From a virus (Duplodnaviria > Heunggongvirae > Uroviricota > Caudoviricetes): a stretch of 17,650 nucleotides of DNA. Shown piece after piece: positions 9,001-12,000 of the stretch. The DNA lies in the IMG/VR virus record IMGVR_UViG_2540341031_000012; one strand, given 5' to 3'. Every line of letters starts with the position of its first letter. Positions within the stretch are counted from its first letter, which is position 1. The position numbers are program-made.

Positions 9001-12000
9001 AATCCGGCCCCCTGAAGGCCGCGCCGTCGCTGTCCTTTCTCGGGCTGGTTGTGATGGATGAACTCTGTGCCCGTCACATAAAAGCGCCGGTACTGCACTG
9101 AAGGAGAACAACACCATGAAAATGAACGTAACCGCCACCGTCAGCCATGCGCTCGGCCACTGGCCGCGTATTCTCCCGGCGCTGGGGATTCAGGTGCTGA
9201 AGAACCGTCATCAGCCCTGTCCGGTCTGTGGCGGGAGTGACCGCTTCCGTTTTGATGACAGGGAGGGGCGCGGCACCTGGTACTGCAATCAGTGTGGTGC
9301 CGGTGACGGCCTGAAACTGGTTGAAAAGGTGTTTGGTGTTTCCCCGTCCGATGCGGCCGCAAAGGTGGCTGCCGTGACCGGCAGCCTGCCCCCGGCTGAC
9401 CCGGCAGTGACGGCTGCCGCCGGTGCTGAAACAGACGCTGCCCGGAAGAACGCCGCCGCACTGGCACAAACCCTGATGGCGAAAACCCGTCCCGGAACCG
9501 GTAACGCCTACCTGACCCGCAAGGGCTTTCCCGGCCGGGAATGCCGGATGCTGACCGGCACACACAGAGCCGGTGGCGTGAGCTGGCGCGCCGGTGACCT
9601 TGTGGTGCCACTGTATGACGACAGCGGCGAACTGGTTAACCTTCAGTTAATCAGTGCTGACGGCCGTAAGCGCACCCTGAAAGGCGGACAGGTCAGGGGC
9701 ACCTGTCACATCCTTGAAGGACAGAATCAGGCCGGAAAACGTCTGTGGATAGCGGAGGGATACGCGACCGCACTTACCGTGCATCACCTGACCGGTGAAA
9801 CGGTGATGGTGGCGCTTTCTTCCGTGAACCTCCTTTCTCTGGCCAGCCTTGCCCGGCAGAAGCACCCCGCCTGTCAGATTGTCCTTGCCGCTGACCGTGA
9901 CCTCAGTGGTGACGGCCAGAAAAAAGCCGCCGCAGCCGCAGATGCGTGTGAAGGTGTTGTTGCCCTGCCGCCGGTCTTCGGTGACTGGAATGATGCCTTC
10001 ACGCAGTACGGCGGGGAAGCCACCCGTAAGGCCATTTATGATGCAATCCGGCCACCGGCTGAAAGCCCGTTCGACACCATGAGCGAAGCGGAGTTTTCCG
10101 CCATGAGTACCAGCGAAAAGGCCATGCGTATCTATGAGCATTACGGCGAGGCGCTCGCGGTCGATGCCAACGGCCAGCTTCTGTCCCGCTATGAAAATGG
10201 TGTCTGGAAGGTGCTGCCACCACAGGACTTTGCCCGGGATGTGGCCGGGCTGTTTCAGCGGCTGCGCGCGCCGTTCTCCTCCGGGAAGGTGGCCTCCGTG
10301 GTGGACACCCTGAAGCTGATTATTCCGCAGCAGGAAGCCCCCTCCCGCTGCCTGATTGGCTTTCGTAACGGCGTGCTCGACACGCAGAACGGCACGTTCC
10401 ACCCGCACAGTCCGTCACACTGGATGCGTACCCTGTGTGATGTGGATTTCACCCCGCCGGTGGACGGTGAAACGCTGGAAACCCACGCTCCCGCGTTCTG
10501 GCGCTGGCTTGACCGTGCCGCCGGTGGCCGTGCGGAAAAACGCGACGTGATTCTGGCCGCACTGTTTATGGTGCTGGCAAACCGCTACGACTGGCAGCTC
10601 TTTCTGGAGGTGACCGGTCCCGGCGGCAGCGGCAAAAGTATCATGGCCGAAATAGCCACCCTGCTGGCCGGGGAGGATAACGCCACGTCGGCCACCATTG
10701 AGACGCTGGAATCCCCGCGTGAACGTGCCGCGTTAACTGGCTTCTCACTGATACGCCTGCCGGACCAGGAAAAATGGAGCGGCGACGGAGCCGGACTCAA
10801 GGCCATCACCGGCGGCGATGCGGTGTCCGTTGACCCGAAATACCGGGATGCGTACTCCACGCATATCCCGGCGGTGATTCTGGCCGTGAACAATAACCCG
10901 ATGCGCTTCACCGACCGCAGCGGCGGCGTGTCACGCCGGCGGGTGATTATTCACTTCCCGGAACAGATAGCCCCGCAGGAGCGCGACCCGCAGCTTAAGG
11001 ACAAAATCACCCGCGAGCTGGCGGTCATCGTGCGTCACCTGATGCAGAAGTTCAGCGACCCGATGCTCGCCCGGTCACTGCTTCAGTCCCAGCAGAACTC
11101 AGACGAGGCGCTGAACATCAAACGGGATGCCGACCCGACGTTTGATTTTATCGGCTATCTGGAAACCCTGCCGCAGACCAGCGGCATGTATATGGGGAAC
11201 GCCAGTATCATCCCGCGTAATTACCGTAAATACCTCTATCACGCCTATCTGGCCTACATGGAGGCAAACGGCTACCGGAATGTACTCAGTCTGAAAATGT
11301 TCGGGCTGGGGCTGCCGGTGATGCTGAAGGAATACGGGCTGAATTACGAGAAGCGCCATACCAAACAGGGGATACAGACCAACCTGACGCTGAAAGAGGA
11401 AAGCTACGGCGACTGGCTGCCAAAATGTGACGACCCTGCAACAACCTGCCCCACCTGACCGGCATCTGCCGGTCTTTTTTTTATCCCGACCTCCCCCGAA
11501 GGTGAACAATCCACTGTTCACCCTTCACCGTATATTCACCCGTTATCACACTGAAATTAAAAGAGAAAAACGAAAGGTGAACAGTGTGAACAATCAAATC
11601 AAAAAAAACTTTTTTCTTCCTGAGTGATTTCAGTGCGGAGGATTAATCACCGGTATGAGTCACACCGGCAGAATGCCGGAGGTGAAGAATCGAATGTTCA
11701 CCCTTCACCCATTATTCACCACCTATCATACTGAAATAAAAGGATAAAAAAGAAAGGTGAACAGTGTAAACAGTTCTTTCGAAAAAAAATTTTTTCCTGT
11801 ACGATATAGCATCAATCCAAGTAAAAATGCGCTTTCATTTCACATTAACTTACAGCCATTGGTATACGATTAGGTATACGCACAAAAACTGAATTAAACA
11901 AAATCATTAAAAATCAAAGCAATACAATATTTATTCAAACTCCGCCAGCTCATGATTGGACGGTATAAGGACAACACCAATAAAAACAGGAAGTTAGCAG

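What the first reader, a model, noticed from the sequence alone, without database searches (positions are those of the whole stretch)
11859..11955. Right end of the element: conserved arm-repeat pair but a degenerate ssrA-like core
The 23-bp GGTATAC repeat pair is almost identical at both ends of the element (1173-1195 and 11859-11881), but the putative attR core matches the ssrA 3' end only imperfectly (an 11-nt identical block plus flanking similarity). Either the functional core is short, or attR has decayed, which would leave the satellite immobilised despite intact genes.
Basis: seen in the sequence. Interest (0 to 1): 0.4.

Follow-up and report, generated by a model that had tools for sequence, protein, structure and literature searches.

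The report
Satellite phage right attachment site
This is the ordinary right-hand attachment site of a P4-type satellite phage inserted in the E. coli tmRNA gene; its "degenerate" core is partly the satellite's own sequence and partly an older 8-base chromosomal scar, so it is probably not a sign that the satellite is stuck.

Summary
The pair TTGGTATACGnTTAGGTATACG occurs exactly twice (1173-1194, 11859-11880), and an imperfect ssrA-like core sits at 11934-11951. The identical block is 10 nt, not 11.

This is attR of a complete P4-like satellite spanning about 1061-11949. In 1,386 of 5,426 complete E. coli genomes, ssrA abuts the sequence that starts at 11950, which fixes the boundary. The repeats sit where P4's annotated attP arm repeats sit: 112 bp and about 53 bp from the core.

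The core has three parts:
- TTCAAACT, the satellite's own sequence, conserved in relatives.
- CCGCCAGC, the crossover block.
- A chromosome-side remnant lacking 8 nt (TCCACCAA, or an equivalent placement).

The deletion looks older than this satellite. The same satellite in strain TUM9757 abuts a different allele. The same 8-nt deletion, on an identical 5.7-kb flank, abuts two other satellites (MS 85-1, PEB17-18). So "short functional core" is favoured over "decayed and immobilised".

Excision would leave a truncated ssrA, as happens with K-12 CP4-57 and Shewanella CP4So. A second ssrA-like copy at 16099-16117 is an older scar also present in empty-site strains. It is not this element's boundary.

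This is a known kind of feature, of modest interest.

The parts
698..1060 (+). ssrA (tmRNA gene). Its last 7 nt (TCCACCA) and everything downstream are supplied by the satellite.
   Evidence: ARAGORN; Rfam tmRNA 295.8 bits
1046..1060 (+). attL core CCGCCAGCTCCACCA. This is the full 15-bp attP/attB identity block seen in a pristine lysogen. The first 8 nt are the crossover block.
   Evidence: MCJCHV-1 has a pristine attR
1110..1134 (+). Satellite-supplied terminator hairpin for ssrA.
1173..1224 (+). P' arm. Two direct 12-bp units (TTGGTATACGTT, TAGGTATACGGT) and two inverted units (1200-1211, 1213-1224), ending 20 nt before the int start. It begins 112 bp from the core, as in P4.
1245..2465 (+). 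Tyrosine integrase with an Arm-DNA-bind_3 domain. It is 60% identical to K-12 IntA and 36% identical to P4 Int.
2553..4092 (-). Variable cargo (72-aa and 435-aa ORFs, no Pfam match) lying between int and cos. Relatives carry other cargo here.
4443..4461 (-). Exact match to the 19-nt P2/P4 cos sequence.
   Evidence: the cos sequence itself was recalled from memory
4626..6569 (-). psu, delta and sid-like genes.
7055..7321 (+). 88-aa Vis/AlpA-type excisionase candidate.
   Evidence: PHROG 2790 and 66, 'excisionase and transcriptional regulator'
7380..7665 (+). P4-type immunity region: c4-a1b1 targets, isrK and C4 (CI) antisense RNA.
9116..11458 (+). Alpha primase-helicase.
11496..11796 (+). crr, with two ~120-nt direct repeats. 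The overlapping stretch tested (window 11650-11795) is 96% identical to P4 crr.
   Evidence: (D1)
11859..11882 (+). P arm: two direct 12-bp arm-type units (TTGGTATACGAT, TAGGTATACGCA).
   Evidence: kept in PEB17-18 within otherwise unalignable DNA
11883..11933 (+). A/T-rich spacer between the P arm and the core.
11934..11941 (+). TTCAAACT, the satellite-side core flank (a T-loop look-alike). It is the satellite's own sequence, not decayed ssrA.
11942..11949 (+). CCGCCAGC, the crossover block shared by attL, attR and attB.
11950..11959 (+). Start of chromosomal DNA (TCATGATTGG). Here 8 nt of the expected TCCACCAATC are missing (d8 allele).
16045..16123 (+). Older attR scar: the right-end remnant of a CP4-57-like element, ending in TTCAGACACCGCCAGCTCAACAA. 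It is followed by a terminator-like hairpin.

Best explanation
Positions 11859-11955 are attR of a complete P4-type satellite (about 1061-11949) integrated at the 3' end of ssrA by an IntA-clade, P4-family tyrosine integrase. The GGTATAC units are the integrase's arm-type binding sites, laid out as in P4 attP. The core has three parts: a satellite-borne flank (TTCAAACT), an 8-bp crossover block (CCGCCAGC), and on the chromosome side the displaced ssrA tail, which has lost 8 nt here. That deletion belongs to the chromosome and predates this satellite's arrival. Different satellites have been exchanged by site-specific recombination on the same scarred site. Strand exchange therefore needs little or nothing specific to the right of CCGCCAGC. 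The satellite supplies the only functional 3' end of ssrA, so excision would leave a truncated tmRNA gene.

Shown: the boundaries, the architecture, the allele distribution, the ancestry switch at the core, and the crossover position for the related CP4-57.

Inferred: arm-site binding, excision competence of this copy, and loss of tmRNA function after excision.
For: Boundaries: 1,386 of 5,426 genomes join ssrA directly to the 11950 flank. IAI1 reads attB = ...CCGCCAGCTCCACCA|ATCATGATTGG.

Architecture: P4's record annotates two tandem 12-bp arm repeats 53 bp from the core on the crr side. On the int side it annotates two tandem repeats 112 bp from the core plus an inverted one at the int start. 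The window has the same layout, at about 52-54 bp and 112 bp. K-12 CP4-57 has the same layout with a different unit. PEB17-18 keeps the GGTATAC pair in otherwise unalignable DNA.

Completeness: int, an excisionase-like ORF, the cos 19-mer, psu/delta/sid, CI RNA, alpha and crr are all present.

Crossover: DTU-1 is a lab strain whose flank is identical to K-12 over 1,400 nt and which lacks CP4-57. It reads TTCAACTC-CCGCCAGC-(no T)CCACCAATC, that is attL-left joined to attR-right. Shewanella CP4So excision likewise gives ssrA lacking the U (PMC5148205).

Host-side allele: from the P' arm to the P arm the window is 99-100% identical to TUM9757, whose attR lacks only the T and sits on another flank haplotype. 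The window's flank 11950-17650 matches MS 85-1 with 1 mismatch and PEB17-18 with 2 mismatches. Both carry d8 next to different satellites (nucleotide identity: int 88% and 84%; alpha in PEB17-18 72%). Ancestry switches within about 21 nt plus CCGCCAGC.
Against: No excised circle or free attP of this satellite was found in plasmids, phages or IMG/VR. There is no experimental test of a d8 attR. DS26-1 has d8 on another flank haplotype, and d5 occurs on at least two haplotypes. Identical deletions can therefore recur, which weakens the single-origin argument. After the deletion only TC of the original right half-site remains, and in lambda-type systems that would be expected to impair recombination.
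Confidence: 0.75

Rival explanations
1. One reading: attR decayed after this satellite integrated, so an otherwise intact satellite can no longer excise.
For: The 8 nt expected to form the chromosomal half-site are missing, and only 2 of 10 following positions match the pristine sequence. d8 is rare, in about 9 of 5,426 genomes. Relatives next to d8 or other alleles often carry IS insertions.
Against: The same d8 on an identical 5.7-kb flank abuts three different satellites, while the same satellite abuts a T-less allele in TUM9757. That places the deletion before this integration. All satellite genes and cos are intact.
Confidence: 0.15
2. The mosaic (TUM9757-like satellite, MS 85-1-like flank) arose by homologous recombination or by independent recurrent d8 deletions, not by site-specific recombination on a scarred site. 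In that case it says nothing about whether the site still functions.
For: d8 and d5 each occur on more than one flank haplotype. TC...TC and CCA...CCA microhomologies could make the same deletions recur.
Against: The ancestry switch lies within about 29 nt that include the core. PEB17-18's right end is unalignable with the window's apart from the arm pair and core, so homologous exchange there is implausible. With d8 at about 1% of occupied sites, three independent origins on one flank lineage are unlikely.
Confidence: 0.12
3. The true right boundary is the downstream ssrA-like copy at 16099-16117, and ypjA is cargo of this element.
For: TTCAGACACCGCCAGCTCA matches the 11934-11952 core at 17 of 19 positions.
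Against: That copy and ypjA are present in IAI1, whose ssrA site is empty, and in K-12 beyond CP4-57. 1,386 genomes join ssrA to position 11950. The region left of the copy is homologous to the CP4-57 right end, not to this satellite.
Confidence: 0.02

Closest known systems
Bacteriophage P4 attP/int module (NC_001609 annotation; Pierson and Kahn 1987, from memory)
   Same: Order alpha-crr-P arm-core-P' arm-int. 12-bp arm units starting TTGG. Two tandem units on each side plus inverted unit(s) at the int start. Spacings of 112 bp and about 53 bp. The core is the 3' end of a tRNA-like gene.
   Different: The target is ssrA, not leuX. The arm unit is GGTATAC, not GGGGGCA. The pristine identity block is 15 bp rather than 20. 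Int is only 36% identical.
CP4-57 cryptic prophage of E. coli K-12 (intA; attR fragment annotated as pseudogene psaA)
   Same: Same chromosomal site and same crossover block. Int is 60% identical. attR also has a T-loop look-alike (TTCAGACT) and a damaged ssrA tail. Excision leaves a defective ssrA (Kirby et al. 1994, from memory).
   Different: CP4-57 is a 22-kb non-satellite island. Its arm unit is GGCCCA/GGACCAA. Its attR lacks only the T, whereas the window lacks 8 nt.
CP4So prophage of Shewanella oneidensis (Zeng et al. 2016, PMC5148205)
   Same: A P4-type integrase element in ssrA. attL x attR excision transfers a one-U deletion into ssrA and abolishes tmRNA function.
   Different: Different genus, a 36-kb mosaic prophage, and a single-nucleotide lesion.

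Membership tests
P4-like satellite integration module (attP/attR) | P4-family tyrosine integrase with an N-terminal arm-binding domain, encoded next to the att site | tested here: met
   Pfam Arm-DNA-bind_3, Phage_int_M and Phage_integrase; 36% identity to P4 Int
P4-like satellite integration module (attP/attR) | Arm-type repeats on both sides of the core in the P4 arrangement | tested here: met
   Same number, orientation and spacing as P4's annotated arm repeats. Protein binding was not tested.
P4-like satellite integration module (attP/attR) | Core identical to the 3' end of a tRNA or tmRNA gene, with boundaries defined by an empty site | tested here: met
   The pristine form shares 15 bp (MCJCHV-1). 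There are 1,386 empty sites. In the window only 8-10 bp remain.
P4-like satellite integration module (attP/attR) | P4 satellite gene set (sid, delta, psu, alpha, crr, cos, CI RNA) | tested here: met
P4-like satellite integration module (attP/attR) | Int/Vis-dependent excision and P2-dependent transfer | not testable with these tools
   A Vis-like ORF is present. No circular form was found in the collections.
IntA-type ssrA-targeting elements (CP4-57 / CP4So) | Crossover 5' of the acceptor-stem U, so the attR tail is transferred to ssrA on excision | tested here: inconclusive
   Shown for CP4-57 by the DTU-1 scar and for CP4So. For this satellite it is inferred from the ancestry switch at CCGCCAGC.
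IntA-type ssrA-targeting elements (CP4-57 / CP4So) | Displaced ssrA tail at attR lacks the G3.U uridine or more | tested here: met
   d8 here. In E. coli the T-less, d4, d5 and d8 alleles are far more common than pristine, whose count is only an upper bound. Similar alleles occur in other Enterobacterales.
Immobilised (decayed) prophage remnant | Loss of att, int or replication functions after integration | tested here: not met
   The genes are intact. The att lesion is on the chromosome side and predates this satellite.

The most novel reading that the evidence does not exclude
The displaced ssrA tail at attR is eroded far more often than it is intact. The alleles seen are loss of the T, d3, d4, d5 and d8. 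All can be written as starting right after CCGCCAGC, all remove the G3.U uridine, and they occur in E. coli, Pantoea, Raoultella, Cedecea and Xenorhabdus. The scar stays with the chromosome while elements come and go. A lineage once scarred can keep a working tmRNA only by carrying some ssrA-completing element. That would be a ratchet explaining the permanent traffic at the tmRNA gene. The deletions themselves might be footprints of abortive integrase cleavage at the right edge of the overlap. Caveat: my searches required an intact CCGCCAGC, so the apparent left anchoring of the deletions is partly ascertainment.
Probability: 0.3. Interest if true: 0.6.

Novelty: new member of a known kind. 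Interest (0 to 1): 0.3.

Why it matters
For this locus, the satellite should be treated as probably still mobile. It should also be treated as the supplier of the only working 3' end of the host's tmRNA gene, so curing it would cost the host trans-translation. More generally, an imperfect att duplicate is not by itself evidence of immobilisation. Which side of the crossover carries the lesion, and whether the lesion travels with the element or with the chromosome, can be read from population data. The eroded-tail allelic series may be worth a dedicated study, but it extends known CP4-57 and CP4So biology rather than overturning it.

Tried and rejected
- I searched for a free attP (right end joined to left end) in PLSDB plasmids, INPHARED phages and IMG/VR. 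No contiguous attP was found; the only hits were the P4 crr and partial matches.
- The strict IHF consensus WATCAANNNNTTR is absent from both att regions.
- No sigma-70-like promoter was called in 1000-1300.
- A genome-contig scan with the 16-mer TTCARACTCCGCCAGC returned mostly chance hits in unrelated phyla. Only 9 loci had 12-bp-spaced repeats or a CCACCA tail, and about 7 of those look like real att sites.
- Williams 2002 and 2003 and Wang 2009 are not held in the library, and I did not look up Kirby 1994. Statements from these papers rest on memory and are marked as such.
- My early inference that d8 is unique to this window was wrong. A junction-spanning 54-mer found it in 9-10 genomes.
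- The count of pristine attR alleles (at most 64) is unreliable, because empty attB sites match the query at about 80% coverage.
- The fourth CCGCCAGCTC, inside alpha (11015-11024, minus strand), has no att-like context and I treat it as chance.

Full report
**What the window is.** It runs smpB (1-483), then ssrA (698-1060; ARAGORN, Rfam), then an ~10.9-kb P4-type satellite, then ypjA and ypjCB.

The satellite is complete:
- an integrase with an arm-binding domain (1245-2465);
- a variable cargo slot (2553-4092);
- an exact P2/P4 cos 19-mer (4443-4461);
- psu, delta and sid;
- an 88-aa excisionase-like ORF (7055-7321);
- the C4/CI RNA immunity region;
- alpha primase (9116-11458);
- a crr; the overlapping stretch tested (window 11650-11795) is 96% identical to P4's.

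**Observation.** The pattern TTGGTATACGNTTAGGTATACG occurs exactly twice, at 1173-1194 and 11859-11880, against none in 200 shuffles. The two copies agree at 22 of 23 positions. Two inverted GGTATAC copies lie just before the int start. The attR core shares a 10-nt block with ssrA (CCGCCAGCTC), not 11, plus TTCAA upstream.

**Boundaries.** A query joining ssrA to the sequence right of 11952 matched as a single piece in 1,386 of 5,426 complete E. coli genomes. IAI1 reads ...CCGCCAGCTCCACCA|ATCATGATTGGACGG. The chromosome therefore resumes at 11950, and 8 nt of the expected TCCACCAATC are missing.

**The repeats are arm-type sites.** P4's own record annotates 12-bp "attP arm sequence repeats". 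There are two in tandem 53 bp from the core on the crr side. There are two in tandem 112 bp from the core on the int side, plus an inverted one at the int start. The window's reconstructed attP has the same plan, with spacings of about 52-54 bp and 112 bp, and units that also begin TTGG. K-12 CP4-57 has the same plan with a different unit. PEB17-18's divergent satellite keeps the GGTATAC pair inside otherwise unalignable DNA. Actual binding by the integrase is inferred, not shown.

**Anatomy of the core.** All relatives share ...ATTCAAACT-CCGCCAGC on the left, so the "degenerate" T-loop-like part is the satellite's own sequence. To the right of CCGCCAGC there is an allelic series:

| Allele | Sequence after CCGCCAGC | Where seen |
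|---|---|---|
| pristine | TCCACCAATC | MCJCHV-1 |
| T-less | CCACCAATC | K-12, GN03139, HS4, TUM9757 |
| d4 | CCAATC | GPEC657, MDK9L1 |
| d5 | CAATC | STEC346, 14EC029, Br_178 |
| d8 | TC | window, MS 85-1 |

Junction-spanning 54-mers matched at 80% coverage or more in about 535 genomes for T-less, 194 for d5 and 9 for d8. The T-less count also includes CP4-57-type ends.

**Where the crossover is.** DTU-1 is a lab strain whose flank is identical to K-12 over 1,400 nt and which lacks CP4-57. It reads TTCAACTC-CCGCCAGC-CCACCAATC, that is attL's left side joined to attR's T-less right side. For IntA, which is 60% identical to this integrase, exchange therefore occurs within CCGCCAGC. Shewanella CP4So behaves the same way, and the resulting ssrA-delU is non-functional (PMC5148205). 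WB61 is a wild isolate with an empty site whose only ssrA ends ...CCGCCAGC|CAATCATG.

**The deletion is older than the satellite.** Segment comparisons and alignment A4 show two contrasting patterns.
- From the P' arm through the P arm, the window is 99-100% identical to TUM9757. TUM9757's attR is T-less and sits on a K-12-like flank.
- From 11950 to 17650, the window matches MS 85-1 with 1 mismatch and PEB17-18 with 2 mismatches. Both have d8, but next to different satellites (nucleotide identity to the window: int 88% and 84%; alpha in PEB17-18 72%).

The switch in ancestry falls within about 21 nt plus CCGCCAGC. Any route that places a new satellite's left core flank directly against d8 requires strand exchange at a d8-flanked core. 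This argues against post-integration decay and immobilisation. One caveat applies: d8 also occurs on another flank haplotype (DS26-1), so recurrence of the same deletion is possible.

**Consequence of excision.** A simulated excisant ends ...ccagctca with no CCA. Excision would probably disable tmRNA; this is inferred.

**Downstream copy.** TTCAGACACCGCCAGCTCA at 16099-16117 continues leftward into about 77 nt of homology with the CP4-57 right end. It is present in IAI1 and K-12. It is an older scar, and ypjA-pinH is an older, fixed island remnant rather than cargo of this satellite.

**Comparison and verdict.** This is a P4-type att module of the IntA/ssrA clade. Its behaviour parallels CP4-57 and CP4So. 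It is a new member of a known kind. The eroded-tail series, also seen in Pantoea, Raoultella, Cedecea and Xenorhabdus, is the only part that might repay further study.

Noticed in passing
window 16045-16160: A second displaced ssrA-like tail (TTCAGACACCGCCAGCTCAACAA) with about 77 nt of homology to the right end of CP4-57, followed by a terminator-like hairpin. It is present in IAI1 and K-12 at the same place. ypjA plus the pinH remnant look like an ancient, fixed island at ssrA.
   Followed up: yes
window 12109-15493: ypjA is the truncated form (a 1009-aa ORF plus a separate 108-aa beta-barrel fragment), as in IAI1, MS 85-1 and PEB17-18. Br_178 and K-12 have the 1526-aa gene.
   Followed up: partly
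window 2553-4092: Cargo ORFs of 72 aa and 435 aa have no Pfam match (PHROG 14906, unknown function). They occupy the slot between int and cos where relatives carry NACHT, SIR2, DUF2326, restriction-endonuclease or HamA-helicase genes. This is a candidate uncharacterised anti-phage gene.
   Followed up: no
L015 (E. coli WB61) 2172-2530: A wild isolate with an empty ssrA site whose only ssrA ends ...CCGCCAGCCAATCATG (d5 scar). It appears to be naturally tmRNA-defective.
   Followed up: partly
L013, L014, L023: Small islands at ssrA (integrase plus GapS1, or integrase plus anti-phage dCTP deaminase) use a crossover further 5' in ssrA. Their longer displaced ssrA fragments carry the same T-less or d5 tails.
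   Followed up: partly
L059, L065, L067, L072, L082, L130, L138: In Xenorhabdus, Pantoea, Raoultella, Cedecea and others, TTCAGACTCCGCCAGC preceded by 12-bp-spaced repeats is followed by eroded tails (CCA.., ACCA.., CCACCA..). None was pristine. One Pantoea element uses the same GGTATAC arm unit.
   Followed up: partly
L007 (STEC2017-197), L008 (SJ3): Tandem arrays in which the satellite's right end is followed by a second integrase element. The middle junction is T-less in one strain and carries a further 5-nt deletion in the other.
   Followed up: no
window 676-682: A seventh GGTATAC lies 16 nt upstream of ssrA in host DNA (TGGTATACT, promoter-like). It is probably coincidental.
   Followed up: no
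window 11015-11024 (minus strand): A fourth exact CCGCCAGCTC lies inside the alpha gene with no att-like context. It is treated as chance, although only 0.04 copies are expected.
   Followed up: no
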